Shown: piece after piece, positions 10,540 through 53,512 of the stretch
Layout: each line of letters begins with the position of its first letter
Numbering within the stretch: position 1 is the first letter of the stretch
Assembly: GCA_963575745.1 (NCBI GenBank)
Contig: CAUYUJ010000258.1
Location: forward strand, 62,001-116,210
Source: Prorocentrum cordatum
Lineage: Eukaryota
Direction of reading: 5' to 3'
DNA: 54,210 nucleotides
Position numbers and translations under genes: made by a program
The notes under the pieces: generated by a model
The model's database searches: none
Told to the model about the DNA's origin: nothing
What the model saw: only the letters and a program-made list of their open reading frames with translations

Positions 10540-10759
10540 CCCTTCCTCCTCCGCCTCGGCCTCTGCCTCCGCCTCCGGCCTTCTCTTCTGCTGTCTTCGC
10601 CGCCTCCTCGCCCTCGTCGTCCTCATCCGCCGCCTCCTCGGCCTCCTCCTTCTCCTCCTCGGCCTTGTCCTCCTCCTCCTCCTCCTCATCCTTCTCCCCC
10701 TCCTCCTCCTCCTCCTGCTCCTCCTCCTCCTCCTCCTCCTCCTCCTCCTCCTCCTCCTC
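10540..10759. repeat. (CCT)n tract abutting the 3' end of element A
   Basis: Direct reading. Confidence 0.95.
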
Positions 10760-10834: not shown

Positions 10835-12591
10835 CTACAAACCAGGCTCAGCCGGGGCGGAAGCAGGAACAGGAAGGGGAGGGGGCGGAAGGGGAAAAAA
10901 GGGCAGGGACGAAAGGGGAAAGGACGGGCCTAGTCTGTTGGAAGACCCTGGGACCACACCCTTCAGAAGCTTGGACCTCTCCGAGCTCTTCTTGGGGTTG
11001 GTACAAGGACTGCGGAGCTTCTCGCTATTCTTGCAGGAAGCGAAGGCTCCGCACAGTACACAGTAAATGTAAGGTACGTCAGAGGACACTTCTCGAGCCC
11101 AATGCAGCTTATGACCCTGGCCCCCCCCACCACACAACAAAACAGAGAGGGTGGGGTTCAGCTCGTCGCATGGGCTCGTGGTACTCTGACTGACAATACG
11201 AAGGCACCGCTGACACCGCAAGGTATCATCTAGGCGCACAGGAACATGGAGGTTCTTCGGGGTTCGAATCCGAGGTGGTTTCGATCCCTTCCGAAGCTTG
11301 CCGTGCAAGTCTTCACACGACAGAAAACACGATAAAATGCAAGTGACCCCCACAACAAGACTATTGTACTCGACCTCCGCACGCTCGAAATCCAACAGCT
11401 CCTGGGGGCATAAATTGTGACTCTGGGCCCCTTTCTTAGCCCATTCATCAGCATGGAAAGATCCTACGATCGTGCACCTATCTTGCTCGTCTATCGCATC
11501 ATTGAACGACCTGTGGGCCTTAACTTTGGTAAGGGCAACCCATTGTCGTTCTTTCAACTTACGGGCCATTTCACGCCAGAAAAAAGCCAGGCGGGACGAG
11601 CCAACTAAGGCTCTAGCAGAATCGCGAGTCCCAAGGAAAAGCGACGCACAATCAACCGAAACAGCTTGAAAATGGTCCAGAGGGTCCTGGTCCGATCTCC
11701 GAAGGACACTAACCGCTAGGGCAGCATGCTCAGCGTCACTAACAGTCTGACGGAACTCAGCGGGCAGCGGGCAGTAGATCCCACGAACTAACTGGTCTCC
11801 ACGGAGCTGAATCACGGCAATCCTAGCTCGCGCAATTTTTTCCTCAATTGAAACAAGACCCATCCGTGTACAAGACGTCACCAGGGTCAAACTGAAATGC
11901 AGGCGTGGGTCGACCATCGTTCCCGAAAAACTCCAGTTCCCAGTCAGGAGCTGGAGACGGGAGATCGGGGAAAGGGACCCACAAACGCGACAAAAGCAGA
12001 CAGTCCTCGGAGGCCCCTCGGACCTGGTCCAGGGTTTCCTCGCCGAAAAACTCCGACCGCTTTTGCACAACATCTGGAATAGGAGCACTCCCAAACTCTA
12101 TGCCACAGCGTGTCGAGAGCTTGCTTACATAAAGGACACAAATCGCAAACAGCGTATCCCCACCTTACGAGGTTGCTGCCAGTCGGGACAGTCCCTGACA
12201 CCACTTGGCAGAACAGGTGAAGAAGATCCGCAGGGAGGCCTTTTGCCACCCTCTGCATTGGAGGTAGCCACAGGCCTCGCTGCATAATGTCTAAACCCCC
12301 AGGAGCGTTGGTAAGCTTAGTTCGTATAGCTTTCTGTAGCATAGCGTAGCGGAGGTCTTCAAGAAAAGCAGAGCAAACTTCCGCAGGTGGCCGTTCGGTG
12401 AGGACCCACCGAAAACCACTCCTAGAAATGAGAACCGCTGGGCCCTCCCAAGTCCATCCGCCAGCTTCCAGCCACAGGAGCATCGCCGAGATCGGCCCCC
12501 GAGAACGATACATCCATGGCTTCCGCGGACGGGAGGCCATCAACGCAGCAGCAGATCGAAAACTCTTGCTTAGATCGCCTGGGCTCATCAC
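10835..12591 (-). pseudogene. CCHC knuckle, RNase H and Cys/His-rich tail of element A ORF2
   Basis: CPLCKQALDTLWHRVWEC (11944..12591); VLYTDGSC (11844..12068); QTVSDAE, VSVDC, KVKAH and HADEWAKKGA (10835..12094); then CQRC and CVLC motifs. Confidence 0.9.
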
Positions 12592-12923
12592 GTCTTGATG
12601 TCTGGGCCGACCTCGCTTCGGATCGGGTTCGGTCGAATGCCACCATTCCCACGAGTAGCGTCTGAGAGGACCTGCAGCAAGCTACAACGGATCTCCTCGA
12701 TATTTATAAATTGCTCACTGGAGCTCGAGTGAACAACCTTTTTTACTGATGCCTCCAGCCCTCGCAGCAGACCGTCTGATGTACTGAAGTTCGGCTGGTG
12801 AGACTCCTTGGACTTCCATCCCGTAGGATACCGTAGTCAGGGTCCCACTCTTGAACAGTCTAGCCTTCGCTCTTCTGGACACCCGAGGCGCTCCATGACG
12901 TCTAATCCGATGTTGGAATTTCG

Positions 12924-14597
12924 CTAACCTCTTCCTTTTTTTATGGCCTTCAGAATCGGAACTCGAAGATGTTTACCAACACTGAACGGAACTCCAAGAT
13001 TCCCTGGGGCCCACTCACCAGTACCAGCAAGACATCCAAGATGGTCCTGCACAACTTTCAGCAAACTCTGGGAATTTGCAGCCGCATGCGTCTTCTGTAA
13101 AGCGAGGGGCACCTTCAACGTGGCATTGATGTGGTAGGCCATGGTCACTGCCAAAGCCTTCAACTGAACAGCGCACTCAACAGGTGAGATGTGCCACGAG
13201 TGAAGAGAGAGATCGTCGACATGTGAACCTTGGCGCGTACCTGGATACTCCCTGCCGTGCATGATCGTGTTCCACATGAACGCTTTGGCTTCGTAGGTGG
13301 CAGAGGTGCTGCCCGCAACAATCCCTCGATTAGCATATAACGGCTGCGAATAAGCATCATCGAGAAGAAGAATTCTCTTCCACTTGTAAGTTGACAGCGT
13401 ATACAGCAACACATGCATTGGGAACCCCGAGATGACCCCCTGTTTGATCAGCTCCTGGTGCCCTATGTGCTCGTAGAATTGCTTGAGATCCAACAGAAGA
13501 CTAGCCCAACAGACCTTATCTCCAGTGGCTCGCTCAGCTTCAACCGAAGGCCTCCAAACGATGTCCAAGCTGCTGCGACCCTGGCCCATAGAAAACTCAG
13601 GCCCAAGACCAGCCCGAGCTTCCCAAGATCTGCAGGGGTTCCGATGAGTTTTCCCATGCAACCTTTCGAAGGCGTTGTAGTGCCCTATGGGCCTCCTTCC
13701 TTTGCCGGGACGGCCCATCAAGGACACAATTAGGCTCTGACTCAGTTTAGGCCCTTGCCCCAAGACGTCCATAAGATGATACAACCAGGATAAACAGTCC
13801 AGCGCAGACTCCCCCATCATGCTGAAATGCCTCGGGTGGAAACCATCAGGGCAACATGTGAACTTCGGGAACCTCGAGCTGATGTACCGCAGGGTCTCGC
13901 CTGAAACAGGGCCTGGGACCTCGATGGGAAACTCGGGGGCCCAGAAGTCATCGTCAGACACCTGCTCATCCTCCTCCTTGGCCTTCCAAGCAGCTTTCCA
14001 GATGCTACCTTCTTGGGCGAGACGAGCGGGCAGGCCACTAGAGAAAGAATCCAAGCTCGGTGCAACCTCTTCTTGCACTGGCTCTCCTGCACGTAAGAAT
14101 GCGAAAGCTTGCCTGCCTCCATTGTTGAGCGACTCTGAACACCAGGACTTCCAAGCTTCCCTGTCCCGAGTTCGTTCCTCCACTTGACCTTGGCGGGCCC
14201 ACATGGACACGAAGTCCAGAGTCCACTTCAAAACGTCCTGACGAGTTTCACTGGGCCTCGGAAACGTAAGCCGCTCAGCAATCGACGCCAAGAAAGGATG
14301 CCAGAAGTCGCACCCCTTCCTCCAGAACCTGCGGAACGGGCCACCTCGTTGCGGAATGTCAATCCACTGCTGGACCAAGCGCTCACGGTAATCGTCCTTC
14401 CCAGTCTGGCCGAAAAGGCTCTGGAGCTCCTTGATGCGGAGGATCACCAATTGAATCGCACGGCCAGGAAACGCTGAATCACGTTTACGAGTAGCAAGGC
14501 GCCGATCTAGTCGCGTCGCTTTCAACTCAGAAGGACTTCCTCCAGGCAAACCTGTTCCTTGAACCTTTCTAACATCAACAACCTCACCCCAGGCCAA
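12924..14597 (-). pseudogene. Reverse transcriptase domain of element A ORF2
   Basis: CPDGFHP, GRRPIG, LLLDLKQFYEHI, RGIVAGS and catalytic SHVDDL motifs in a 557-aa open segment; reading frame broken on both sides. Confidence 0.92.
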
Positions 14598-14614
14598 TGG
14601 GACCCACTTCTCAT

Positions 14615-15792
14615 CTATCTTATTGACTTATTGAGAAGCTCGACTCCACGTTCCTTCTCAACCCCTCTGGCCATAAACGTGGTCCCAGAGTCCCCAAGCC
14701 TCGGCTCCAAGAAGTCCTTAAGCTCCTTCGTGAGGTCCGAGAAATCCCTGGGCTCAGGAACGGGCCCGATGGCTCTGACAGCTGGGGCCTTCAGGTACCT
14801 CTTGGGGACATTGACGTAGATGCCTCGAATGGCCTGCTTAATCGTGAGCTCGACGGGCCTGTGGGGGCTGAACGGGCACCTTGGGAATGGCATTGTCTAA
14901 ATTCATGTGCACCACGAAATGGTCCAAGACAGTGCCCACACCTGGCGCCACATAAGTCGGGTCTCCTGGGGCTCTAACGACAGCACAGAGGTACTTCACA
15001 GGGATCCCATCGATGAGGGCGCTCGGGGACATGTTGAAGTCACCCCCAATGATGTAGGGGACCCCGTGCCGAAAAGTGTCATCCCAGATGTGCTGCATGG
15101 TCTTCACGTTATCCTTTGAGGCCAATGGAGTCCTGGAGTTAGGTAGAGTAGATCGCTAGTACTCCAATTTCCGAACTGCGAAGATAGCAACGCGCAACCC
15201 TGCCAGCTACAGCTTCAGCAGACTCCCCAGGGGCGAGAAAAACGTCATAATGCCTTCTGACACACACCATGGTCCCACTCGAAGGATATCCAGATTCGGT
15301 GTACAGACAGTCGGTCCCAAAGACCTTCCATCCACACTTCTGCAGACGATTGATTGTCTTCCGATAGAGGGCCCCTGCAAGATGATGTTCTTGAAACAAA
15401 ACAATGTCAGCGTCTGTCTCTCTAATCATGTCATTGAAACCAGGGGTAGAGCAACTAGCGGGGCGTTCGAGATCTTCGCTGTCATTTGATTCGGCAACCC
15501 AACTAGAGCCATTGAAAGTAATACCGCGGAGATTACGTAGCCTATCACGGCGATGCTTAGAACCCGTCTTGGGCTGGCACGGTGATGCGCCAGTCGTGTC
15601 GATGCGCCTGGCCTGACAACCCTGAGTCAAACATTGACTTCCGTGAATGATTGAGTCTCGTGCCACATCTACAGACAAGCAAGGGCTAGACTTGCAGGTC
15701 CAGCGCCCTAGCGTCGAGATATGGGAAAAACGACCATCTTGAACTTGACAACGCGGTACATTCGGCCAATCGCGGGCGTCAGGCACCCACAT
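14615..15792 (-). pseudogene. APE-type endonuclease domain of element A ORF2 (split by stop/frameshifts)
   Basis: Motifs ITFNGSSW, DIVLFQEHHL, SSGTMV, YIIGGDFNMSP, PTY...VLDHFVV and SPHRPV are spread over ORFs 15139..16968, 14838..15125 and 14615..14893. Confidence 0.88.
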
Positions 15793-15895
15793 GTCCCGTA
15801 TACCATAGTGAGCTTGACAATGAAGTAGAGCATTCGGCAACCCTGAGGGACTCACCTGTTGTCCCAGGCCTGGATCATACGAGGGATGGCGGAGG

Positions 15896-16954
15896 CTAAA
15901 GATCATATGTAGGATCATCACCTCCCGCAACCTCCCACCTAGCATTAGGGTGTGTGTAGTCCGCCATGGCAGTGATGGCACTCGCTGTAGGCTTGCCTCC
16001 ACGACCTGGCGCCCTGAACCGAGGCTTCTTGGTGGCAGCCTTGAGAGAGTCAATGATCTGTCGCTTGACAGCTTCAGAAACACCTTCCACTTCCACGGCA
16101 GCGTTGACATCAACTTCATCCAAGCCCAAAAACGACTCCTCATCAACGTCGACCGTGGCCGCGAACGACGAGTCAAAGGCCTTGACGAACTCCGTGTACT
16201 TGGCTTCCAACCCTGCACGCGCCTCAGCATGTTGGAGGCCCGCCACGAGAGTCTTGAAACCATCCATGTGAGCACGAAGAGCTTTGATATCTGGAACACC
16301 AGGAACAACTTTGGCGGCGGCCACCTTGCGAGCCTCCTCCACAGCGCGACGCTCCTCGGTGATGACCAGCTCCAGATCCTTGCGCTTGACATCAAGCTCG
16401 GTGATCTGACCCACCACAGCGGCGTGGGTGGACTCAAGCTTGCCGATCTTCGAAAGCCTCCGAGCCTCCTCCTGTTCAGCACGGTGAAGAACACGAGACA
16501 AAGAAAGTTGATCTTGATGGGCCTGCTTGGCCTCGGAGTAGGCACTGGAAATGGCGTCGAGCGACCCTTGAGGCAGCAGGTCCTTGAAACGGCCCGTAGT
16601 GCACAGCTGCTGGAGCCGATGGAGCTCGTCCATCGCGGCCCTCGAATGGCCTCGAGCCTGAGATGTTGCAGAGTCGGACGGTGAGCCTCCTCCTCTGCGT
16701 GCCCCACCAGCACCTCCTGTCCCTCGACCGTTGGGCCCCTTTCCACCTCCGCCCCAACGTTGCACAGGGACCCATGGGTTCCGAGTCCAGACATCTCCAG
16801 GTGGCGGGGGAGGGATGACGATTTGCCCAAAACGAGGGAGATCACCGCGGCAGTGATAACAAAACTTGAAGTGCGCAGGGTTCTTTTTGCACCCACACTG
16901 TGGGCAGGCGAGCCCCTTCTCATAGTCGGAATAACGTCTTCCAGAGCGGACCAT
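15896..16954 (-). CDS. ORF1 (gag-like) of element A: N-terminal RanBP2-like C4 zinc finger, coiled coil, basic C-terminal motif
   Basis: Open 352-aa frame from ATG 16954: LACPQCGCKKNPAHFKFCYHC, a Gly-rich linker, helical E/K/A-rich repeats and TKKPRFR. It lies between the SL and the APE domain. Confidence 0.85.
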   Translation of the reverse strand: MVRSGRRYSDYEKGLACPQCGCKKNPAHFKFCYHCRGDLPRFGQIVIPPPPPGDVWTRNPWVPVQRWGGGGKGPNGRGTGGAGGARRGGGSPSDSATSQARGHSRAAMDELHRLQQLCTTGRFKDLLPQGSLDAISSAYSEAKQAHQDQLSLSRVLHRAEQEEARRLSKIGKLESTHAAVVGQITELDVKRKDLELVITEERRAVEEARKVAAAKVVPGVPDIKALRAHMDGFKTLVAGLQHAEARAGLEAKYTEFVKAFDSSFAATVDVDEESFLGLDEVDVNAAVEVEGVSEAVKRQIIDSLKAATKKPRFRAPGRGGKPTASAITAMADYTHPNARWEVAGGDDPTYDL

Positions 16955-17101
16955 CCCAAGACACGCATTGGAACAAGAGGCGGACAATGAAGTCCGCAGG
17001 AAAGCTGGGCTCTGAGGTGGCCCCTGCCCGAGAGATGGAAGTCGAAACACGGCTGAACCCCTTGAGCGAGGTTGGACGTTCAGGATGGGTTTAACCCCAC
17101 C

Positions 17102-17138
17102 CTTGAGCCAAAATGGCTTGAGCCAAAATGGCTACGGC
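17102..17138 (-). other. Dinoflagellate spliced leader (complete 22-mer) followed by a 15-nt SL relict
   Basis: Minus strand reads GCCGTAGCCATTTTGGCTCAAG (17138-17117; matches DCCGTAGCCATTTTGGCTCAAG) then CCATTTTGGCTCAAG (17116-17102). A third, degenerate copy CCAACCTCGCTCAAG (11/15 identity) is at 17075-17061. Confidence 0.97.
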
Positions 17139-18522
17139 TCCTCCTCCTCCTCCTCCTCCTCCTCCTCCTCCTCCTCCTCCTCCTTCTCCTCCTCCTCCTC
17201 CTCCTCCTCCTCCTCCTCCTCCTCCCCCTCCTCCTCCTCCTCCTCCTCCTCTCTCTCGTCCTCCTCTTCGTCCTCCCGTCTTGGTGTTGCTGGTGGTTGA
17301 CCTGCTGGTCTCCGTCGTGGCGCTGGGGGGTAGTGGTGCGGTTGGTCGCGGTCATAGTGCTGTTGGTGGTGGTGGCCGTCGGGGTGGTGGTGCTGGTTGT
17401 TGTCGTCGTGGTGTTGGATGCCAGGCGTAGTCCCCCGATTGTTGTAGGTCGCCGTCGTGCGGTTTCTGCTGGCGGAGCTGTTGGTCGTGCTAGTGGCTGT
17501 GGTTTTGCTTGTAGTCGTGGCGCTCCTGGTCGCTGTCGTGGTGGTGGTGCTGCTGGTCGCAGTCGTGGGGCAACTGCTGGTCGCGGTCGTGGTGGCGCTG
17601 CTGGTCGTAGTCGTGTTGCTGGTGCGGCTGCTGGTACTGGTGCGGCTTGCAGCCTTTGTGGCGCTGCTGGTCGCAGGCGTGGGGCTGCTTGCTGCCGTCT
17701 CGCCGTCCTCTTCGGCCTCCTCCTTCGCCGCCTCGTCTGTCTCCTCTTCCTCCTCATCCTCGCCCTCTCCCCTCCTCTTCGTCTTCCTCGCCCTCTGCCT
17801 CCTCCTCCTCCTCCTCCACCTCCTCCTCCTCCTCCTCCTCCTCCTCCTCCTCCTCCTCCGTGGTGGTGGTGGTGGTGGTGGTGGTGGTGGTGGTCGCGGT
17901 GGCGGGGCTGCTGGCGGTGCTGCTTCTGGTCGCTGTCTCGGTGGCGGCACTGCTGGTCGCCGTCGTGGTTGTGGTCCCGCAGGTTGCTGGTGGCGGTGCT
18001 GGTGGTGGCGCTGTTAATCACCATCGTCGTGGTGGTGCTGGTGGTCGTCGTGGTTGTGGTGGCGGTGCTGGTGGCGGTGCTGCTTGTCGCCGTGGTGGTG
18101 GTAGTAGTGCTGGTCGCCGTCGTGGTTGTGGTGGTGCTGCTAGTCGTTGTCGTGGTGGTGGTCCTCCTGGTCGCCGTCGCAGTGGTGGCGGTGGTGGGGG
18201 TGCTGGCGGTCGTGCTGCTGGTCGCCGCGGTGGCGGTGTTAGTTCTAGTCGCCTTCGTGGTGCCGCGGGTCGCCTTCGTGGTGCCGCGAGTCGCCGTCGC
18301 GGCGTGGGGCTCGTAGTCGCCGCCGTGGTAGTGGTGCTGCTGGTGGCGGGGCTGCTGGTCGCCGTCGGGGTGGAGTGGCTGCTGGTCGTGGTGGTGGTGG
18401 TGGTGGCGCTGCTGGTCGTTGTCGTGGTGGCGGTGCTGGTGATGGTGGTGGTGGTCGCGGTGCTGGTCGCCATCGTGGTCGTCGTCGGGGCGGTAGCGCT
18501 GCTGGTCGCTGTAGTGCTGCTG

Positions 18523-18555
<33 letters not shown>

Positions 18556-18612
18556 TTTGTCGTCGTCGTCGTCGTCGTCGTCGTCGGCGTCGGCGTCGTC
18601 GGCCGTCGTCGG

Positions 18613-18658
<46 letters not shown>

Positions 18659-19020
18659 GGTGTTGCTGGCCGCTGTCGTGGTAATAGTAGTGTTGCTGGC
18701 CGACATCGCGATTGGTTGTGGTGCTACTGGCCGCAGTCGTGGTGCTGGCGGTGCTGGCGGTGGTCCTGCTCGTCGCCGTCGCGGTGGCGCTGCTGGTCAA
18801 AATCGTTGGGCCCTTGGTCGCTGGTGCTGGTACTGGTCGCAGTCGTGGTGCTGCTGGTCGTCGTCGTGGTAGCGGCGCTGCTGCTGCTGGTCCGTGTTTT
18901 GCTGGTGGCGCTGCTTGTAATAGTCGTTGTGCTGCTAGTCGTAGTCGTCGTGGTGGTGGTGTTAGTCGCGGTCGTGGTGGTGACTGGTGGTGCGTTGCTG
19001 GTCGTAATTGTGGCCAGTAG
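17138..19020. repeat. (CCT)n tract abutting the 5' end of element A, then degenerate (GTG/GTC/GCT)n
   Basis: Direct reading. Confidence 0.93.
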
Positions 19021-41169: not shown

Positions 41170-41430
41170 TGGCCAGTCGGGGCCGAAGTTGGCCCAAGAG
41201 GGACCAGAAACAGCCCAAGAGCGCGTCTTGGCCCAAGACGGCCTTTAGAAGGGCTGCAGACAGCCCGGCCCCAAGACAGCCCACTCTGGCATCCAGACCG
41301 CCCACGGAGCCCCAGGAGACTCTCACGACGGCCAAGAGGGACCCAAGACGGCCCAAAAGGCCTTCAGGACGGCCCAACATGCCCCCCAAAGGGCGTCAGA
41401 GCGGCCACAAGAGACCCCAACAAGGGGCCC
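41170..41430. repeat. Inverted copy of the GGCCGTCTTGG repeat family
   Basis: ggcccaagacggcc and cccaagag motifs. Confidence 0.6.
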
Positions 41431-43270: not shown

Positions 43271-43276
43271 TGTTTG

Positions 43277-43338
43277 TCCGTAGCTCCCCCCTGGCTTAAG
43301 CCTTGGCTCAAGGTTGGCTCAACCCGCTGTGGGTCAAG
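43277..43338 (+). other. Stack of up to four degenerate SL relicts
   Basis: TCCGTAGCTCCCCCCTGGCTTAAG, CCTTGGCTCAAG, GTTGGCTCAA and CCGCTGTGGGTCAAG in tandem. Confidence 0.75.
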
Positions 43339-44451
43339 CAGCGGGCCGTCGGGAGGCCATGCCCCCTCTCCTCCGCTTCTGCTCCTTCCTTGCCGCTTCC
43401 GCTTCCACTCCCTTCTCCTGGCCAGCGTCGCGGACCCCCCCGGGCGGCAGGCGTCGCGGGCGCCGCGGGCGCTTCGGGCGCCGCGGCCGCCCCCGGGGCC
43501 CCCCGGCTGCCAGCCCGCCGCCACCGCCGCGGGCGCCGCGGGCGGCCGCGCCGCGGCGCCCTTCCGCCGCGTGGCGCGGCCGAAGGCGCTGCAGGTCGAG
43601 GAGCCACTGCGACGCGCGCCCTGGCCGTCGGGTTCTGGCCCATGGCCCGTGGTCTGTGGAAGGAGACGAACCTCAATAGGGAGGTCGGTGAAGTCCTAGG
43701 GTGCGCTCCTGGAAGTTCTGGCCGCGTCCGAGTTCGCTTTGATTGACCAGTTGGGATTCGAGCACTTCGTCCTCGCAATCGGGCGCCTCCCGTGGACTCC
43801 GACTCCGACGACGACGACCTGGACCTCCACTGCGGGACGGAAAGGTTGGACGTGAACGTCTGGGAGTTCTTTTAGGCCTCCTGGATGGGGTCCGAGTAGA
43901 TGGGGTCGGGGGCTCGCGCCGCATGGCCGATGCATCGACGACGCGGCTCGATGTGGAGGCCGTGTTTTCCCACGCGGACGTCGCCGGTGCACCGCCGATG
44001 CGTCGGCGATGCATTGGCGATGCGGCGCGATCCGTCGACCCCATCTACTCGGACCCCATCCCGGAGGCCTCTGGTTCTGGACCAGGCGCTGCAGAAGACC
44101 ACCCAGTTCGTCAGGGGCCACATCTCCGCCCCCGGCGTGGAGTTGCGCTTCATCGCCTGTGAGGTCCTTCCACGAGTCTGGCTTCCGCCTCCGTGGGGAC
44201 TCCAGAGGTGGCCATCCAGTGCTCAGGCGCACGGTGCCAGAGGGCTTGGAGGTAACGCGCTTCCCCTTCCTCGGGCAGTCGAACGCCAACACGGTCCGCC
44301 TCGGCATCACGCCACCAGCCTGGCCACCGCCACCCCGAAGGTGACGCGCGTCGAGGCAATCGGCAAGGCGATTGAGGGCGTGTCCACGGGGGTGCTCGCG
44401 AACGTGTGCACGTGGGTGCCGCCCAACGTGGAGTGGCGCGCCTCAAAGTGA
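43339..44451 (+). pseudogene. SL-capped processed pseudogene (retrogene) with an SH3-like beta-barrel motif
   Basis: Downstream of SL relicts, ATG at 43359. Segment GLWKETNLNREVGEVLG...GRVRVRFD*PVGIRALRPRN resembles the GL..pELNG..G.V....gR..V......l.p.NL module I recall from algal proteins. Contains an in-frame stop, frameshifts and an insertion. Confidence 0.55.
43874..44070. mobile_element. MITE-like element, 197 bp, 35-bp terminal inverted repeats
   Basis: AGGCCTCCTGGATGGGGTCCGAGTAGATGGGGTCG at the left end and its reverse complement (34/35) at the right end; no clear TSD. Confidence 0.75.
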
Positions 44452-45960: not shown

Positions 45961-46111
45961 CCGCTTCTTCTTCTTCTTCTTCTTCTTCTTCTCCTCCTCC
46001 TCCTCCTCCTCCTCCTCCTCCTCCTCCTCCGCCTCCCCTTCCTCCTCCCCTCCTCCTCCTCCTCCCTCCTCCTCCTCCTCCTCCTCCTCCTCCTCCTCCT
46101 CCTCCTCCTCC

Positions 46112-46145
46112 GCTCAAGTAACATCTGGGTTCCGACCATTTTGGC
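46112..46145 (+). other. Degenerate SL remnants at the 5' end of element B
   Basis: GCTCAAG (SL 3' end) at 46112-46118 and TCCGACCATTTTGGC at 46131-46145, containing a 10-nt exact match CCATTTTGGC. Confidence 0.65.
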
Positions 46146-46253
46146 AGAGAGCTCAGGTGCCTCTGTGCCTTCCCGTGGCACTTGGGGGACAGTGCACGAA
46201 CGCCCCAGAGGATTGTTCGAGCGCTGACAAAAGCAGAGGGTTTTCAGACAGCA

Positions 46254-47354
46254 ATGGCAACGGCCAGGACATGGACACGGTGCGCAGAATGCCAGCGCTG
46301 CGAGTACAATGACGTGCTGCAGCGGAACGACAGCAAGTGTGCGCATTGTGGTGAGAGAGTGGCTCTATTTCAGCCAAAGAGGAGCGCCTCGCGTGACAGG
46401 GGCAAGAAGAAAGTGAGTTTCACGAACGACGACTCGGGCAACCTGCTGCAGCCCAAGGGTATTCTTCGTTCGGCCTCACCTTCGACAGGTAGCAGGGGCA
46501 GCACGCGTGGAAAGGCAGCAGTGACAGAGCACCTCCAGCTCGCGCTGCAAGCCACCGATGATGCCCAACTGAAGGACAGCCTTCAGAAGCATATTCAACA
46601 GCTTGAGAAGGATGCCGCAGGAAACGAGGACTCAGTCAACCCCGTGGAGGCCTTGCGGCGCGCCGACAGTGCATTCCGCGACGCAGACCACCGCCATGGG
46701 CAGCTGGCGGCGAATGTGGTCAGGTTGAGGACACAGTTGGCGCTGGCAGAGAAGAAGGAGGGCGTTGCAGCCCAGGAGGTTGCGCGAGCGCAGGCCGCGC
46801 GGCGCGCAGCCACCCAGGCCTTAGCCCATGCTGAGGGCGTCAAAGGCCAGGGTGAGACCTCCGAGGGGACCCAGGAGAGTGCGGTCCCGAAGCCGATTTT
46901 CCAGTGCACTTGGGACAAGGAGTTCTTCGCGAACATAGAGTCCTTGGACTGCGAATCCTCCGAGAAGGAAGCTCTACGCACGATCAAGACCGATCTCGAG
47001 CAGGCCGCAGGTGCTATGGAGACCAAAGAGGCGGAGGTGCGCAAGTGGCTCGACCAGTTGCAGCAGCTTCGCAATGACGTGGAGAAGCGCACGGCCAAGA
47101 AGAGACGTGGAGCTGATGGCGCAGCAGCTGAAGGTGGTGGCGGTGAAGCCAAGCCCCCGACGGCTGCCGCAGGCTCTGAGGGCACCGACCCCGCGGCGAC
47201 CCAGGCAGCCAAGGCGGCGCAGGAGGCTGCGAATGCGGAGGAGGAGGCCAAGATAGCAGTCGAGGCGCAGAGGCTGTCGGCGGCGAAGCTGGAGGCGGCG
47301 GCACAGGCGGCAGCCACCAAGGGCAAGGGCAAGGACCCTGCCGTCGCGGCTTGA
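46254..47354 (+). CDS. ORF1 (gag-like) of element B: C4 zinc finger, coiled coil, basic motif
   Basis: MATARTWTRCAECQRC...KCAHCG, a long A/E/Q/K helical region and AKKRR; intact frame upstream of APE. Confidence 0.87.
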   Translation: MATARTWTRCAECQRCEYNDVLQRNDSKCAHCGERVALFQPKRSASRDRGKKKVSFTNDDSGNLLQPKGILRSASPSTGSRGSTRGKAAVTEHLQLALQATDDAQLKDSLQKHIQQLEKDAAGNEDSVNPVEALRRADSAFRDADHRHGQLAANVVRLRTQLALAEKKEGVAAQEVARAQAARRAATQALAHAEGVKGQGETSEGTQESAVPKPIFQCTWDKEFFANIESLDCESSEKEALRTIKTDLEQAAGAMETKEAEVRKWLDQLQQLRNDVEKRTAKKRRGADGAAAEGGGGEAKPPTAAAGSEGTDPAATQAAKAAQEAANAEEEAKIAVEAQRLSAAKLEAAAQAAATKGKGKDPAVAA

Positions 47355-47378
47355 CTAGGCACGGCAGCGCAGGCGGAT

Positions 47379-48334
47379 ATGCATGGAGCAGACCCCACCT
47401 GTGCTGCCTCACCGAGCATCGCAGAGGCGGTGCCTGCAGGGGAGAGTGCTACGACGCGACTCTTTTATTCTAATGTCACTTGCATGGGGGAGAAGTCTTG
47501 GGCGTGGATTACATCCCAGACCAAGACCTACGACTTTTTCGCGATCGCCGAGACTCATGTCCACTCCGAGTCAGCGCTGCGGTCCTACGACAGCAAAGCT
47601 AGAGGTGCAGGGCTGCGGCTTTTCGCCAACGCTGCTCGCCCCACCTCGAGGCGAGTTGCAGCCCAGCAGGCTGAGCACGCCAACGAAGGAGGCGAGTGGC
47701 TCCTTTCACGTGGACATCTGCAGACACACAGGCTTGGAGCAGCTCATGCAGCACGGGGCAAGCTGGCTGCTCCAGGTCATGGGAACTCGTATGACGGATT
47801 CATGGCGCAGGTAGTCCACTTCGTCGGCTTCTCGCTGGTGAACGTGGTCTTCTACGGATACAGCAACATGGGGTTGTACGGCGCGAACCTCGGGAGGTTC
47901 AACCGCCTGCTGGGGTTGCTGTGGGCGCTGCAGTTGCCCTGGGTGGTCGTGGGCGACTTCAATCTGAGCCCTGCTGCCCTCTCGCGTGCAGGCATAGTTG
48001 AACGTCTGTCAGCTGAGATTATTTCGGCCGACATCGCAGCAACATGCAACCTCGGATCAGGCACCCACATTGATTACGTTCTCTGTAGTAAGGCCGCACG
48101 GCCTTTCATTGTCAGTGTGAGTCCAGTATTGCAGGTCCCTTGGAAACCCCACATCGGGTTAGATATAGTTTTTCGGAGTTCTGGAGAGCAACTGCTCACT
48201 CGCGTTTTAGAGTTGCCTGGGAAACTCCCTCAGGTTCCCAGGCCCAGGGTGGAGCCTACTCCTGGCTCCAAATCCAGCGTTGCCAAAGCTAAGAGGAGTG
48301 TGCAGCATCAGCTAGCCGTAGTTTCTCGAGCTGA
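47379..48334 (+). CDS. APE-type endonuclease, N-terminal part of element B ORF2 (interrupted by AT-rich island)
   Basis: FYSNVT, FFAIAETHV, PWVVVGDFNLSP, ATC...HIDYVL and WKPHIGL motifs. Confidence 0.9.
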
Positions 48335-48830
48335 TAAATTCAATTCATATTTTATCTATATTTCTATATTATATTTTATATTATTATTGTTATTTATTAT
48401 TATAGAATAATCATAATATGTCTTATATTAATATTATAATATATATTATTATATATTATAATATTATTTTTATATTTATTAAAAATATTATTAAGTACTT
48501 TATTGAGATTATTATTATTTTATTATAATTTAAAACTTAAAGATCTATATCAATATATATATTCAATTATAAAATATATCAAAATCATTTTTATATATAT
48601 TATAAATATATTCCATTATATATTATTCAATATACTTCATATTTTATTTATTTATTTGAATAGATTAAAATAAATACAATCTATTTTTTATAATATCCGA
48701 ACTGATATTAATAAATAACCACAACCGCAAGTCCAAATATCAAAGCAAAAAAAAACAAACAGAACCACGACAAACACACCACCACTAAACACACATCACA
48801 CACACTACCATAACCTAAGCTAGGTTATGT
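48334..48830. other. Extremely AT-rich low-complexity island inside element B
   Basis: Abrupt switch from GC-rich coding sequence to almost pure A/T, then A/C-rich sequence, then back. Confidence 0.9.
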
Positions 48831-48832
48831 AG

Positions 48833-51718
48833 ACACAAGGCCAGCGTGCGACCCCCGCCGAGGATGAGGAAGGGGAAAATGCCTCTCCGTCTGCGGGGGA
48901 TAGGGTGCCAGGTACTGTTAGTTTAGAAATCGATTTTGATGAATGGCCCGAGGAGGAAGACCCTTGGGCTCAGGAGCTCAATTATTGCTCGGATTTGTCG
49001 GTGTGCCAAGTTTTTTCGAATTCGTCGGTGTCTCCTGGGGATCCCACTGTGGCTGGGGGCCCTGGGCGCGGTGGTCCTAGTGTCTCTTCGCAAGAGGCGG
49101 GTCTCGACCTCGCCAGCCGACCCGAAGGACCTTCGGACACGATTGGCCATCCCGCGTCTCCGTCTGGGTCACCAGCCTTGGATTCCCAGGAAGCCTCTAA
49201 TCTGGATGCGTCACACGGTGGAGCCTCGCCCACTAACCAGGAGCCTTCCTTTGCCATACCTCCTGAGTTGTGGGATGAATGTCGACGTGCCGTGGGTTTC
49301 ACGCCTGGTGGTTTCTCGCTCGAGTCCCTTGCTCCTGCTTTCCATCAGTCAGTAGCCTTTCGGCTCAAGCCAGCTCACCTGGCAGTGATCTCAGGGCTAT
49401 ATGCATCATGGGTGTCGTCTGTTGAACGCTGTATTTCTGCTCATCACAATGTGCCAGTCCCTCCAGGGCCAACCCGAGCCCAGGGGGCCAGATTCACAGT
49501 GCAGACAGTCAAGATGCCAGGGAAAGGTAGGGCCACCCCGCTCCGTGATCGTGTGAGTGCCTGGTGGACCCAACTCCACACGTTCTTAAATGCCATTGCA
49601 CTTCACCGTTCCAGAGGGAACGGAGCCAATCAGCTGGAACGCTATCTTCAGGCCTGTCAACGGCACGTGGACGACAGGCCTGATGGGTTGGCCAAGGTTC
49701 TGATTGCCGCTAAGGACCCGCCCTGGGATGAATGGATCAGGATCATCAGGACGGCTGGCACGTGCGCGCTTCCAGTTCTGCAGAGTTACGAGTGTACCTC
49801 ACGTCGTGTCATGAATCGTGCACAGAGAAGGGCAGTCAGTGGATCGATTGCCGAGTTCAAGGAGTTTTTCGTGCAGGTGGAGTCCTTAGGTACCTTGCAC
49901 AAGTCTCTTCACGGGCAGGCACTCCCTGGGCTGGATTATGAACAGGGTGACCAAGTGCTATACCATCCCAAGGATATCATCGACGCGAAGTCGAAACACT
50001 GGCACTCCCTTTGGTCGCCGTCGGCTTTGAATGAGGAAGAGGTTTTGGACACATTTCACTCTATTCACCAAGTTGCGGTGGACGAGGAGCTGCCCATGAT
50101 CTCGGTCCCAGGTATCCGACGAGCGCTGAGGCAGATGAAAGCCAAGGCAGGACTCGGAGTTGATATGATGACCCCCACGGACTTCGAAAGATTACCTGAT
50201 TCGGCCTTGGCAGAATTGGCAATTCTTTTTGAAGCTTGTGAGCTTTACGGTTGTTGGCCAGGGCAAGTTTTACTTATCATCGGACGGATGTTGCCGAAAA
50301 AGGTGTCAGGAGATCGAATAATTGGACTAGTGGCAATGCTTGGGCGAGTCTGGAGCATGATGCGAGAACCTCTTGTTCGCACATGGTCCACATCCACCGA
50401 GCAGCAGTGGGATGCGGCCATACGCGGCAATTCCAGTCTTAGAGAAGCATTCGTACGAGCGGTACAGGAGGAGGTTTCGCATCAGTTGAAGGTACATTGT
50501 GCTGATGGGTTGATGGACATCCAATCTTTCTACGATTCCATAGAATGGCCATGTCTCGCTCGGTGTGCCCTCAACTTATCCTTTCCAGCTCGTGTTCTTC
50601 AGTTGGAGTTGTTGATGTGCGTCGCCATGCGCTCGTTGGGACAGCTGGGGGCCTTCTCTCAGCCGTTCCAACCGACTCGGATCATAGTCCAGGGGCTCCG
50701 CTCTGGGACTCGCTTCGGGCGATGCCTGACGCACCATGTCCTCTCCAAGATCACGGTGGCCCATCCGAGGCTTAGCCACCGCATTTGGATCGACGATCTA
50801 TCACAGTTCATGAGGGGGTCGAGGAAGGATCTTCGCATCAAAATGGCATCATGTCTGATTGCCACTTGCAGGGCTCTGGAGACACAGAAGTTGGCCGTCT
50901 CGCCCAAGTCCGTCATCGTCTGCACCAAGTTGCAGGATGCCGAGTGGATTTCGCGAGCAGTGCGGCGCGCAGGCTTCACAGTACGTCTTAAGCTACAGGC
51001 AGGGTATCTTGGTGTGGATCTCTCATGTGGGGCACGGCTGGCGCGACAGACGCGGGCCAAGCGAGATGAGAAAAGCAAGGGTATGAGCGCCAAGATCAGA
51101 CGTTTCGCTTTCACGTCAAAGAAGTATTCTATCACACGACGGTTGGAGAAGCAAGGGTCACAGGCTGCAGGTGTCTACGGCCACCAGATTTTTGGTACGT
51201 TCGGTGCGCGCATGGTCCAAGCCAGGAGGAAGCTTGGTATGTCCTGCGCTGCGGCTACAAAAGGAAGGTGCCTCACCACACTTTTGGCGCTGCGTGCAGG
51301 CGACCACGACCCTGGCATCAAACTACCTGTGGAGTGTCTAGATCTTTGGTTGCATTTGTGGCGTGAACATCCTGACATGAGGAAGGGCATCCAGCAGGCT
51401 TGGACCCCAGTTTTCCAGCGAATGGTGCACCTACCTCCAGAGCAGCGCTCCCGCCATGTTCGCGGCCCCCTGTCGGCAGTGGTTCTTCACCTGCTAGAAG
51501 CGGGATGGGGAGCTCAGGAGGCGACAGGGTGGACCATCCCAGCGCCTCACCCGTTCGAGGGCGAACAGTGGCGCTTCGATGACAGCATGTACAGCGGCAT
51601 CGACGCACTCGACAGGCACGACGGCTTTTTGGCAGATTTCGCTGACACACTTCGCCGTCGCTTGTGGGTGGGAGCGAGTCGTCACTATGCTGGAAGGGGG
51701 TCTCGAACAGGGAGCTGA
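48833..51718 (+). CDS. Linker and reverse transcriptase of element B ORF2
   Basis: KAGLGVD, PKKVSGDRIIGL, LMDIQSFYDSI, IVQGLRSG, catalytic IWIDDL and YLGVD. Frame open from 48833 to a +1 shift in the G5 run at 51696-51700. Confidence 0.93.
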   Translation, partial: TQGQRATPAEDEEGENASPSAGDRVPGTVSLEIDFDEWPEEEDPWAQELNYCSDLSVCQVFSNSSVSPGDPTVAGGPGRGGPSVSSQEAGLDLASRPEGPSDTIGHPASPSGSPALDSQEASNLDASHGGASPTNQEPSFAIPPELWDECRRAVGFTPGGFSLESLAPAFHQSVAFRLKPAHLAVISGLYASWVSSVERCISAHHNVPVPPGPTRAQGARFTVQTVKMPGKGRATPLRDRVSAWWTQLHTFLNAIALHRSRGNGANQLERYLQACQRHVDDRPDGLAKVLIAAKDPPWDEWIRIIRTAGTCALPVLQSYECTSRRVMNRAQRRAVSGSIAEFKEFFVQVESLGTLHKSLHGQALPGLDYEQGDQVLYHPKDIIDAKSKHWHSLWSPSALNEEEVLDTFHSIHQVAVDEELPMISVPGIRRALRQMKAKAGLGVDMMTPTDFERLPDSALAELAILFEACELYGCWPGQVLLIIGRMLPKKVSGDRIIGLVAMLGRVWSMMREPLVRTWSTSTEQQWDAAIRGNSSLREAFVRAVQEEVSHQLKVHCADGLMDIQSFYDSIEWPCLARCALNLSFPARVLQLELLMCVAMRSLGQLGAFSQPFQPTRIIVQGLRSGTRFGRCLTHHVLSKITVAHPRLSHRIWIDDLSQFMRGSRKDLRIKMASCLIATCRALETQKLAVSPKSVIVCTKLQDAEWISRAVRRAGFTVRLKLQAGYLGVDLSCGARLARQTRAKRDEKSKGMSAKIRRFAFTSKKYSITRRLEKQGSQAAGVYGHQIFGTFGARMVQARRKLGMSCAAATKGRCLTTLLALRAGDHDPGIKLPVECLDLWLHLWREHPDMRKGIQQAWTPVFQRMVHLPPEQRSRHVRGPLSAVVLHLLEAGWGAQEATGWTIPAPHPFEGEQWRFDDSMYSGIDALDRHDGFLADFADTLRRRLWVGASRHYAGRGSRTGS

Positions 51719-53189
51719 TTGCCGTTCCTATCGTATTCTTATCGATCAACTCTCGGCAGTCCCAGTGATTGGGCATCGGCTTGGGGAAGTCATGGTTTCG
51801 TGTGCAGTTGGAGGTGTCTGGCCTAGAGCCAGGCGCAGAGCTGAGATGCCCAAGTATCGTGGTTCTGAGATGTGTGGACGTTGTGGTACGAAGACCGAGA
51901 CGCTGAAACACAGGATTTGGGAATGTGAATGCAATACAGGCAGCTCCGCATATACCGAGTCTGATGAGTTGGTTTCACAGGCGCTGGTTCAGTCTGACGC
52001 AGACGAGGCGTTCTGGTTGCGAGGCATGATGCCTCAGCCCTGGACGGAGGTGCCACCGCCACCGTCCGAGGAGTGCTGGGTGGCCACGAACAACGACGAC
52101 GTGGTCGAGGGATTCTTGGGCGGCGGCACTACGGAGGAGCCGCTACTGGTGTTTGGCGATGCCAGCGGTGGTGCCGACACCAGCAGCCCGACCTTCCGCA
52201 GAGTAGGCTTGGGCATTGCAGTCTTCACCCAGCTGGAGCCGTCGGTGGAGCTGCTGACCACAGTGAGGGGTCATCTCGCTGGGCCTCGCCAGGTGGTCGC
52301 TCGGGGCGAACTGCGAGCTCTCCTTCTGGCCGTGTGGTGCACAGTCGGCGCGATCACTTTCGTATCGGACTGTGAGTCGGTCGTACAGGGCTGGTTCGAG
52401 CAGAAGTTCCTGGCCCCATCGGGGCCCGACGGTGACCTGTGGGCCCGTCTCGGCCAGCTCGTGGCCGCAGCACCAGAGCGCAGCATCAGTGTCTTCTTCG
52501 TCAACTCCCACCTCACGGGGCGCGACGTGGTGCAGCAGCGCGCACCGAGGTGGATGATCACGGGCAACAGCGTGGTGGACGAGGTGGCGGGGTGGGCAGC
52601 CGCGGAGGCCAGGTTGCCCATCGCCATCCGCCACCGTGTGCTGATGCACGAGAGGAGGGCGAGGCTGGTCAGGATGCGGATCCTAAGGTCGACGTTGGAT
52701 GCGATGAATGCGGAGAGCAAGGCCCCGCGGGAGAAACCATCGTCCTCCTCCGTCGTCGTCCCTCCTTCTGCTGCTTCGTGCTCCCTCTTCTCCTCCTCCC
52801 ACTGTCTGGATGACACGGGGCGGGGTTGCACGAGATGCGGAGGGTCAGCCTCCAGAGCCACCACCGTCGTTTGGAGGCTAACTCCGTGTTTTCAGCCAGT
52901 CCATTATAATGGGGTGCTCTGGTTTAAACCCCCTCTGGCCCCCCTCCATATAGCGGGGGGGAGCGTTCACGAATCCCATAATATGCAATTTCATGGCCCA
53001 TTAAAGTTATGGTATTGCCGTGACTGTGCTGGTTTCGGTGCTAATCAGATTCTCAAGCTTGGCCAGCCTTGCCTCCGTAAGCTAACCTCGTCTGGAATCG
53101 AGTACTTAGACCGAATCTCCCGTGGGCTGTGGCCGAAGGTCGTCAGCCGTGCTGAGCAAGCATCCCGACGTCCCAGGGGCGTAATTTAA
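51700..53189 (+). CDS. CCHC knuckle, RNase H and Cys/His-rich tail of element B ORF2
   Basis: CGRCGTKTETLKHRIWEC; VFGDASG, QVVARGELRA, FVSDC, DLW, VNSH and GNSVVDEVA; then CTRC and CRDC motifs. Confidence 0.92.
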
Positions 53190-53363
53190 GGTGCTATGTA
53201 TTATGCTCTTATAGTATTGCTGACTTCGTCATATGGTCATGCTCATGCTCATGCTCCTCCTCCTCCTCCGCCTCCCCCTCCTCCTCCTCCTCCTCCTCCT
53301 TCGCCTCCTCCTCATCCTCCTCGTCGTCGTCCTCCTCCTCCTCCTCCTCCGCCGCCTCCTCCT

Positions 53364-53512
53364 GTCGTGACAGGACTGGTGATTACCTGGCACCCAGTCG
53401 TGACAGGACTGGTGACTACCTGGCACCAAGTCGTGACAGGGCTGGTGGTTACCTGGCGCCAAGTCGTGACAGGGCTGGTGGCCGTTACATACCCAGTCGT
53501 GACAGGACTGGC
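53364..53512. repeat. 33-bp tandem repeat, about 4.5 copies
   Basis: GTCGTGACAGG at 53364, 53397, 53430, 53463 and 53496. Confidence 0.93.

What the first reader, a model, noticed from the sequence alone, without database searches (positions are those of the whole stretch)
17061..17138. A LINE whose 5' end is a complete spliced leader plus stacked relicts: trans-splicing-dependent retrotransposon
Seen: element A starts exactly with the full 22-nt DinoSL, then a perfect 15-nt relict, then a degenerate third copy, about 110-180 bp upstream of the ORF1 ATG. Established: DinoSL is added to mRNAs by trans-splicing. The CCATTTTGGCTCAAG relict arises when an integrated SL is re-spliced at the AG of CCGTAG, as described for recycled dinoflagellate retrogenes. 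Inference: this element was transcribed, SL-capped, reverse transcribed through all ~6.4 kb to the cap end and reinserted for at least two, possibly three, rounds. The integrated SL would supply its own splice acceptor, so the element could regenerate a capped 5' end from read-through transcription without an internal promoter. This differs from NeSL/SLACS/CRE elements, which insert into SL-RNA genes. I cannot confirm novelty without a literature search.
Basis: partly seen in the sequence, partly recalled or inferred. Interest (0 to 1): 0.92.

Follow-up and report, generated by a model that had tools for sequence, protein, structure and literature searches.

The report
LINE retrotransposon carrying spliced-leader relicts
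A dinoflagellate LINE retrotransposon begins with a complete copy of the spliced leader that this organism adds to its mRNAs, followed by an older leader remnant. This shows that the element was copied back into the genome from trans-spliced mRNA at least twice.

Summary
On the minus strand, 17138-17117 is a 22/22 DinoSL and 17116-17102 is a perfect 15-nt relict. They sit 184-148 nt upstream of the ORF1 ATG of a 6.4-kb APE-type LINE (element A).

The "third copy" (17075-17061) matches only 11 of 15 bases and lies 26 nt from the stack. Chance gives about 0.02. One related contig loses homology exactly at its first base, which is weak support.

The leader lies inside the insertion. The same (GAG)n array flanks A at both ends, and nothing resembling an SL-RNA gene is present.

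A second, unrelated LINE in the window (B) has leader remnants at the same place. Two LINEs on environmental contigs also begin with leader-plus-relict stacks: L029 has an SL plus one relict, and L065 has three relicts, intact ORFs and a poly(A) tail.

The best reading is that LINE RNAs are trans-spliced like host mRNAs, copied to the 5' end and reinserted. This is the known retrogene "recycling" applied to autonomous elements.

The claim that the element depends on trans-splicing and lacks a promoter is untested. Element A itself has a broken ORF2. My literature searches found no explicit description of this.

Verdict: new variant of a known kind, moderately interesting.

The parts
17139..17276 (-). 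(GAG)n microsatellite directly upstream of the leader; it reads (CTC)n on the + strand. This is the 5' flank or target of element A.
   Evidence: 46 copies, 90% matches.
17117..17138 (-). Complete 22-nt DinoSL. The first base, G, is ambiguous with the flanking repeat.
   Evidence: 21/21 fixed bases match; 0 of 100 shuffles gave a match.
17102..17116 (-). Perfect 15-nt leader relict. It begins right after the position of the leader's internal AG.
17076..17101 (-). 26-nt spacer between the relict and the putative older relict. I infer that it is flank sequence carried along from an ancestral copy.
   Evidence: In one search, one related contig loses homology at 17075, so this stretch is not shared with that relative.
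17061..17075 (-). Putative degenerate older relict, 11/15 matching, with the last 7 bases GCTCAAG exact.
   Evidence: chance about 0.02; loose end exactly at 17075, one contig only.
15896..16954 (-). ORF1 of element A: 352 aa, intact, with an N-terminal CxxC...CxxC zinc motif and a coiled-coil-like middle part.
   Evidence: No Pfam family matched and no homologue was found.
10835..15900 (-). ORF2 region of element A, split over several reading frames. Pieces: APE-like endonuclease 14841-15700, reverse transcriptase 12924-14627, zf-RVT 11944-12681, C-terminal part 10835-12097.
   Evidence: 39% identity to a Prorocentrum cordatum RT protein, E 1e-62; that protein aligns across frame changes near 12933-12972 and 11996-12097.
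10603..10759 (-). (GAG)n array at the 3' end of element A, after a 3' UTR of about 75 nt. It is either a tail or the other half of the split target.
45991..46111 (+). (CTC)n array directly upstream of element B.
46112..46157 (+). Leader remnants at the 5' end of element B. GCTCAAG sits at the junction, followed by 17 nt, then CCATTTTGGC (46136-46145) and a degenerate remainder.
   Evidence: the 10-mer is expected 0.09 times per window, and its only other two occurrences are in element A..
46254..53189 (+). Element B coding region. ORF1 runs 46254-47354, endonuclease 47355-48330, an AT-rich block 48330-48830, RT 48833-51718 and a C-terminal part 51498-53189.
   Evidence: The RT is 25% identical to that of element A.
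53254..53363 (+). (CTC)n array at the 3' end of element B.

Best explanation
Element A is a full-length retrocopy of a LINE mRNA that carried the dinoflagellate spliced leader.

**Shown by the sequence**
- The element starts with a whole leader followed by a relict cut exactly at the leader's internal AG.
- That structure needs three steps: (1) an earlier copy that already had an integrated leader, (2) transcription through it with trans-splicing of a new leader onto the AG inside the old one, and (3) reverse transcription of that mRNA to its first bases and insertion here.
- The present copy and its parent copy are therefore both recorded.

**Inferred**
- The LINE is transcribed from upstream, because nothing suggests a promoter of its own.
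- Trans-splicing cuts it free and caps it.
- Its own endonuclease and reverse transcriptase insert it by target-primed reverse transcription into a (CTC)n/(GAG)n microsatellite.
- The putative third relict and the 26-nt spacer record a still older round in which the acceptor lay in flanking DNA.

**Status of this copy.** ORF2 is now frame-shifted. The copy was either mobilised by proteins from intact relatives or decayed after insertion.

**Generality.** The same process acts on very different LINE lineages.
For: **Leader structure.** 22/22 leader plus 15/15 relict, head to tail, in the sense orientation, 148-184 nt upstream of the ORF1 ATG.

**The cargo is a LINE.**
- zf-RVT scores above Pfam's cut-off, and RVT_1 and Exo_endo_phos score below it.
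- The RT piece matches a Prorocentrum cordatum RT protein at E 1e-62.
- ORF1 lies upstream, and no long repeat flanks the element.

**The leader lies within the insertion.**
- (GAG)n abuts both ends of element A.
- Of 5 (CTC)n array clusters on the + strand, 4 abut the ends of LINE A or LINE B, while such arrays (CTC and GAG types together) cover about 1% of the window.

**Relatives exist.** 127 contigs of run X1 are at least 80% similar to the element, and one stops matching at 17075.

**The pattern recurs.**
- Element B has GCTCAAG at its junction plus an exact CCATTTTGGC 120 nt before its ATG.
- L029 has a 21/22 leader plus a perfect relict, then a zinc-motif ORF1 and an endonuclease with weak support only: tblastn to B's endonuclease E 2.4e-4 and Exo_endo_phos_2 E 0.06, below cut-off.
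- L065 has three stacked relicts, an intact ORF1, a 1049-aa endonuclease-RT ORF2 (RVT_1 E 3e-16) and an A15 tail followed by flank.
Against: - No RNA evidence: no RNA run was listed.
- No whole genome is held, so the 5' ends of family copies could not be tabulated.
- The one related 5' junction seen shows 20 nt of unrelated sequence upstream of 17075 and no leader.
- ORF2 of A is broken, so this copy cannot move itself.
- Only 2 of 37 stacked-relict loci with at least 1.5 kb downstream are LINEs. LINEs are therefore a small share of recycled loci in that sample.
- If each round added a relict, an old LINE lineage should carry many. Only 1-3 are seen, so other acceptors must often be used.
Confidence: 0.8

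Rival explanations
1. The LINE inserted into, or right behind, a leader sequence that was already there. This would be either an SL-RNA gene, as for NeSL/SLACS/CRE, or the 5' end of a host retrogene. In that case the leader is target DNA and not part of the element.
For: Site-specific LINEs in SL-RNA genes are known from nematodes and trypanosomatids (recalled). The window holds another leader stack that belongs to no LINE, at 43276-43339, so such targets exist nearby.
Against: - The leader is whole and stacked, not interrupted.
- It is followed by a relict, not by GT and an intron.
- No SL remainder lies beyond the 3' end.
- The same (GAG)n flanks both ends, outside the leader.
- The endonuclease is APE-like.
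- Four different LINEs show the same layout in the same orientation.
- Rfam gave no SL-RNA match. I do not know whether Rfam holds a dinoflagellate SL-RNA family.
Confidence: 0.05
2. During reverse transcription the enzyme jumped from the 5' end of an unspliced LINE RNA onto another leader-bearing RNA, as in human U6/L1 chimeras. The LINE RNA itself was then never trans-spliced.
For: Template switching by LINE reverse transcriptases is established in mammals (recalled). Leader-bearing RNAs are abundant in dinoflagellates.
Against: - A jump onto an mRNA should bring along part of that mRNA's 5' UTR. Here only a leader and a relict are present.
- The 26-nt spacer is not a leader.
- The arrangement recurs in L029 and L065 with clean relict junctions.
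- A jump onto SL RNA would copy its intron part.
Confidence: 0.07
3. Chance resemblance, or an assembly artefact such as cDNA reads built into the assembly.
For: ORF2 has several frame breaks, which could hint at error-prone reads.
Against: - 37 consecutive matching bases, with 0 matches in 100 shuffles.
- The sequence runs on into repeats and further DNA on both sides.
- Independent contigs from other sources show the same layout.
Confidence: 0.02

Closest known systems
Recycled dinoflagellate retrogenes with stacked DinoSL relicts (Slamovits & Keeling 2008, recalled and cited in PMC6050394; Song et al. 2017, PMC5585692, passages read; PMC12014239, passages read)
   Same: The leader followed by CCATTTTGGCTCAAG relicts, lying head to tail upstream of the coding sequence. 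The mechanism is also the same: reverse transcription of trans-spliced mRNA, re-expression, and re-splicing at the AG inside the integrated leader.
   Different: The cargo is an autonomous-type LINE with ORF1 and an endonuclease-RT ORF2, not a host gene. Element A ends in a microsatellite rather than poly(A). Song et al. only noted that the GO term 'RNA-dependent DNA replication' is enriched among relict-bearing genes. Together with PMC6050394, they favoured Ty1/copia as the source of the enzyme.
NeSL-1, SLACS, CRE, CZAR: LINEs specific for SL-RNA genes (recalled)
   Same: A LINE physically joined to spliced-leader sequence in an organism that trans-splices.
   Different: Those elements cut into the leader exon of SL-RNA genes and use a restriction-like endonuclease. 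Here the leader is complete, stacked, lies inside the flanking repeat, and the endonuclease is APE-like.
L1Tc/ingi of trypanosomatids with the Pr77 internal promoter (PMC1874656 and PMC8190864: titles and abstracts seen in the search listing)
   Same: LINEs living in a genome with polycistronic transcription and universal trans-splicing.
   Different: Pr77 drives transcripts that are not trans-spliced. The elements here carry the leader, so their RNA went through the host's trans-splicing.
R2 and other LINEs that free their 5' end from a co-transcript with an HDV-like ribozyme (recalled)
   Same: By inference, both solve the same problem: making a defined 5' end from read-through transcription without a promoter of their own.
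   Different: The processing is done by the host spliceosome and also supplies a cap. No ribozyme was sought or found here.
SymbioLINE elements of Symbiodinium (de Mendoza et al. 2018, PMC5890265, passages read)
   Same: Dinoflagellate LINEs with ORF1, an endonuclease-RT-RNase H ORF2, conserved UTRs and no poly(A) tail.
   Different: The passages I searched do not mention a spliced leader at the 5' end. ORF1 of elements A and B is a zinc-motif/coiled-coil protein, not a DNA methyltransferase.
Microsatellite-targeting LINEs such as Kibi, Koshi, Waldo, Mino, Dong (recalled)
   Same: The same short repeat on both sides of the element.
   Different: Target preference here rests on two elements in one window. 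A and B lie in opposite orientation relative to the repeat.

Membership tests
Non-LTR retrotransposon (APE-type LINE) | Reverse transcriptase domain | tested here: met
   RVT_1 is weak (E 0.0023, below cut-off). The piece matches a Prorocentrum cordatum protein carrying PF00078 at E 1e-62. zf-RVT scores 30.7 bits against a cut-off of 27.5.
Non-LTR retrotransposon (APE-type LINE) | Apurinic-type endonuclease N-terminal to the RT | tested here: inconclusive
   Exo_endo_phos matches at E 0.047 and E 0.0037 on two adjacent frame pieces, both below cut-off. Their order and position fit an endonuclease.
Non-LTR retrotransposon (APE-type LINE) | No long terminal repeats; ORF1 lies upstream of ORF2 | tested here: met
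   The element has no other DNA match in the window. ORF1 of 352 aa is intact.
Non-LTR retrotransposon (APE-type LINE) | Intact ORF2 (autonomy of this copy) | tested here: not met
   There are at least four frame changes. A homologous protein aligns across two of them.
Recycled DinoSL retrocopy | DNA-encoded leader in sense orientation upstream of the coding sequence | tested here: met
Recycled DinoSL retrocopy | Relict begins exactly after the leader's internal AG and is stacked head to tail | tested here: met
Recycled DinoSL retrocopy | Poly(A) remnant at the 3' end | tested here: not met
   Element A ends in (GAG)n. L065 does end in A15.
SL-RNA-gene-specific LINE (NeSL/SLACS/CRE) | Element interrupts the leader exon of an SL-RNA gene, with the remainder of the gene beyond the 3' end | tested here: not met
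   The leader is whole and followed by a relict. The 3' flank is (GAG)n and GC-rich DNA without any leader.
SL-RNA-gene-specific LINE (NeSL/SLACS/CRE) | Restriction-enzyme-like endonuclease C-terminal to the RT | not tested
   The C-terminal piece gave no Pfam match. An APE-like domain sits N-terminal instead.

The most novel reading that the evidence does not exclude
Dinoflagellate LINEs as a class have no promoter of their own. They ride on read-through transcription and use the host's spliced-leader trans-splicing to cut out and cap their RNA. The leader they carry into each new site then serves as a built-in splice acceptor. The same LINE machinery, rather than Ty1/copia, would make the very large population of leader-tagged retrogenes in these genomes.
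Probability: 0.35. Interest if true: 0.78.

Novelty: new variant of a known kind. Interest (0 to 1): 0.6.

Why it matters
**Source of the reverse transcriptase.** Leader relicts are the accepted tag of retroposition in dinoflagellates, where over 20% of genes carry them (PMC5585692, PMC11453091, passages read). Which reverse transcriptase makes these copies is still open. The papers I read favour Ty1/copia or leave it undecided. Complete LINEs that carry the tag themselves show that LINE enzymes can copy a leader-capped RNA of more than 6 kb to its end and insert it. That makes LINEs the simplest candidate.

**How the LINE gets its 5' end.** The finding also suggests how a LINE could regain a defined, capped 5' end without an internal promoter. 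This would be the opposite solution to the one used by trypanosome LINEs.

**Testability.** Both ideas can be tested with existing genome assemblies and leader-primed long-read cDNA.

Tried and rejected
- **Whole genome.** None is held, so the family's 5' ends could not be tabulated.
- **Earlier findings of this scan.** Nothing by place, words or sequence.
- **Sequencing runs.** Three runs were listed, all DNA contigs, and no RNA holder was listed. When laid, X1 gave 127 related contigs. Contigs were cut at the repeat 17126-17160, so the leader region of relatives could not be read. X2 gave 0 contigs and X3 gave 2 short pieces.
- **ORF1 in metagenome contigs.** 248 pattern matches, none confirmed.
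- **ORF1 in the protein collection.** No hit.
- **Stacked-relict pattern in viral contigs.** 0 matches.
- **Rfam on 16500-17800.** Only two sub-threshold snoRNA matches.
- **Further LINEs among the stacked-relict loci.**
  - tblastn with A and B proteins on all 119 loci gave one weak hit, L029.
  - phmmer gave only L065 against itself.
  - Pfam on the longest downstream ORF of 71 loci gave one LINE, L065.
  - A laxer rescan of 21 unannotated ORFs gave none.
  - Only the longest ORF of each locus was scanned, so LINEs with broken ORFs may have been missed.
- **Target-site duplication in L065.** None seen.
- **The match at 49355-49369 (12/15).** It lies inside B's ORF2, and I take it as chance.
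- **The repeated GGCCCAAGA motifs at 41180-41240.** These are not leader relicts.

Full report
**The observation**

[quoted passage not shown] The 21 fixed bases match with no mismatch, and no match occurred in 100 shuffles. The first, variable base is G and merges with the repeat upstream.

Directly behind it, 17116-17102 is a perfect 15-nt relict. It starts at the base that follows the AG of CCGTAG. This is the form described for recycled dinoflagellate cDNAs (passages in PMC5585692, PMC6050394 and PMC12014239).

It matches 11 of 15 bases and is separated from the stack by 26 nt. Matches this good occur 14 more times in the 108,420 positions of both strands, so chance puts one in the 147-nt 5' UTR about once in fifty. 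One related contig from a public run stops matching the window exactly at 17075 and continues with 20 unrelated bases. That fits an old 5' terminus at this point, but it is a single contig.

**What the leader is attached to**

The first long ORF with protein-like sequence starts at 16954. It has 352 aa, is intact, and carries a CxxC...CxxC zinc motif and a coiled-coil-like middle part.

Behind it come, in order:
- an APE-like endonuclease, supported by two sub-threshold Exo_endo_phos matches on adjacent frame pieces;
- a reverse transcriptase, with a weak RVT_1 match but 39% identity at E 1e-62 to a Prorocentrum cordatum protein that carries PF00078;
- a zf-RVT domain scoring above Pfam's cut-off;
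- a C-terminal piece that ends at about 10835.

A 3' UTR of about 75 nt then runs into a (GAG)n array at 10759-10603. The unit from leader to array is 6,379 nt. It has no other DNA match in the window, so it has no terminal repeats. This is a LINE.

Its ORF2 is not intact. The coding path changes frame at least four times. The P. cordatum protein aligns across two of these breaks, near 12933-12972 and 11996-12097. Relatives in run X1 differ by 1-2-nt indels at 12935 and 12079. I cannot tell whether the breaks are decay, a defective source RNA or assembly errors.

**The leader is part of the insertion, not the target**

(GAG)n, which reads (CTC)n on the + strand, lies directly upstream of the leader at 17139-17276 and again at the 3' end. 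Pure (CTC)n arrays form five clusters on the + strand, and such arrays (CTC and GAG types together) cover about 1% of the window. Four of the five clusters abut the ends of the window's two LINEs.

The leader is followed by a relict, not by GT and an intron. No leader remainder lies beyond the 3' end. Rfam gave nothing relevant. I do not know whether Rfam holds a dinoflagellate SL-RNA family. The NeSL/SLACS/CRE type of arrangement is therefore not met.

**The pattern recurs**

*Element B.* This LINE lies on the + strand at about 46112-53250. Its reverse transcriptase is only 25% identical to that of A.
- B also sits between two (CTC)n arrays.
- At its 5' junction the array runs straight into GCTCAAG (46112-46118), the last seven bases of the leader.
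- Seventeen bases later comes CCATTTTGGC (46136-46145), 120 nt before the ORF1 ATG.
- That 10-mer is expected 0.09 times per window, and its only other occurrences are the two in element A.
- B is older and damaged. An AT-rich block of about 500 bp splits its endonuclease from the RT, and there is a frame change near 51500-51700.

Of these, 37 have at least 1.5 kb downstream, and two of the 37 are LINEs.
- L029 has 73 nt of flank, a 21/22 leader, a perfect relict, an ORF1 with zinc motifs 66 nt downstream, and then a probable endonuclease. The endonuclease rests on weak hits only: tblastn E 2.4e-4 to B's endonuclease and Exo_endo_phos_2 at E 0.06, below cut-off.
- L065 has 53 nt of flank and two perfect relicts plus a third with small defects. 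It also has an intact ORF1 and an intact 1049-aa ORF2 (Exo_endo_phos_2 and RVT_1, E 3e-16). It ends in a short 3' UTR, an A15 run and 140 nt of further flank.
- The other loci are mostly ordinary host genes such as a phosphate transporter, MCM, 14-3-3 and PGK.
- I scanned only the longest downstream ORF per locus: 71 loci and 21 rescanned. I also ran A, B and L065 proteins against all 119 loci. Two is therefore a minimum.
- The L065 ORF2 family has 46 protein clusters in environmental data on contigs of 2-5 kb. I could not fetch those contigs.

**Mechanism**

*Shown.* The lineage of A passed at least twice through a leader-bearing RNA. A leader followed by a relict cut at the AG can arise only if an integrated leader was transcribed, a new leader was spliced onto its internal AG, and that RNA was copied to its 5' end and inserted. 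The same holds for L029, and at least three times for L065.

*Inferred.*
- The enzyme is the LINE's own. The flanking microsatellites suggest target-primed insertion into (CTC)n/(GAG)n.
- The 26-nt spacer in A and the 17-nt spacer in B stem from rounds in which the acceptor AG lay in flanking DNA.
- B's truncated leader may result from joining at the CTC shared by the leader and the target.
- In B the long (CTC)n tract followed by the first AG would make a good acceptor.

*Relict numbers are only a lower bound on rounds.* Each leader and relict also ends in AG, and splicing there adds no relict. This would explain why a repeatedly copied element carries only 1-3.

*Not shown.* Dependence on trans-splicing and the absence of an internal promoter are untested. 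No RNA run was listed. Since all nuclear mRNAs of dinoflagellates are reported to receive the leader (PMC5585692, PMC6050394), a leader on LINE mRNA is what one would expect.

**Rivals**
- Insertion into an existing leader: the points above argue against it (0.05).
- Template switching of the reverse transcriptase onto another leader-bearing RNA: this would not give clean relict junctions in several independent elements (0.07).
- Chance or artefact (0.02).

**Literature**

The four completed searches and passages from ten papers gave no explicit description of a LINE whose 5' end is a leader stack.
- Nearest statement: Song et al. 2017 (PMC5585692) found the GO term 'RNA-dependent DNA replication' enriched among relict-bearing genes. 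They read this as activity of the machinery.
- That paper, PMC6050394 and PMC3942190 point to Ty1/copia as the likely enzyme source.
- De Mendoza et al. 2018 (PMC5890265) describe Symbiodinium LINEs with conserved UTRs, and the passages I searched do not mention a leader.
- Trypanosome L1Tc uses an internal promoter and gives unspliced transcripts (PMC1874656: title and abstract seen in the listing).
- I did not see supplements, and subscription papers are not covered, so an earlier mention cannot be excluded.

**Verdict**

The "dependent, promoter-less" reading is open, and the third relict is weak. This is the known recycling mechanism applied to autonomous-type LINEs in several lineages. 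It bears on the open question of which enzyme makes dinoflagellate retrogenes. Interest 0.6.

Noticed in passing
window 43276-43339 (+): A degenerate full leader followed by three truncated, degenerate relicts. It is preceded by (GT)n and followed by an ATG at 43360 that opens a low-complexity ORF. This is another recycled 5' end, and it belongs to no LINE.
   Followed up: partly
window 10668-10759, 17138-17251, 45991-46111, 53254-53350 (+): Four of the five (CTC)n array clusters on the + strand abut the ends of the two LINEs, which lie in opposite orientations. This suggests insertion into this microsatellite, or element-borne tails.
   Followed up: partly
window 48330-48830: An AT-rich, repeat-like block of about 500 bp in a genome region of roughly 60% GC. 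It splits element B's endonuclease from its reverse transcriptase.
   Followed up: no
window 15139-16968 (-): The first ATG after the leader, at 16968, opens a 609-aa frame. That frame overlaps the whole of ORF1 in another frame and runs into the endonuclease. Its translation over ORF1 looks like junk.
   Followed up: no
window 53364-53511 (+): A 33-nt tandem repeat of 3.5-4.5 copies lies directly behind element B's 3' (CTC)n array.
   Followed up: no
L007 7-91 (+): A metagenome contig with three successive stacked-relict junctions, meaning at least four leader units in a row, ahead of a 454-aa ORF with no Pfam match.
   Followed up: no
L065 (whole contig): The ORF2 of this relict-bearing LINE has 46 related protein clusters in environmental data, on contigs of 2-5 kb. 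These may be near full-length copies or transcripts.
   Followed up: partly
window 17300-19000: More than 1.5 kb of triplet and 21-27-nt repeats upstream of element A gives long open frames on both strands. No gene is evident.
   Followed up: no
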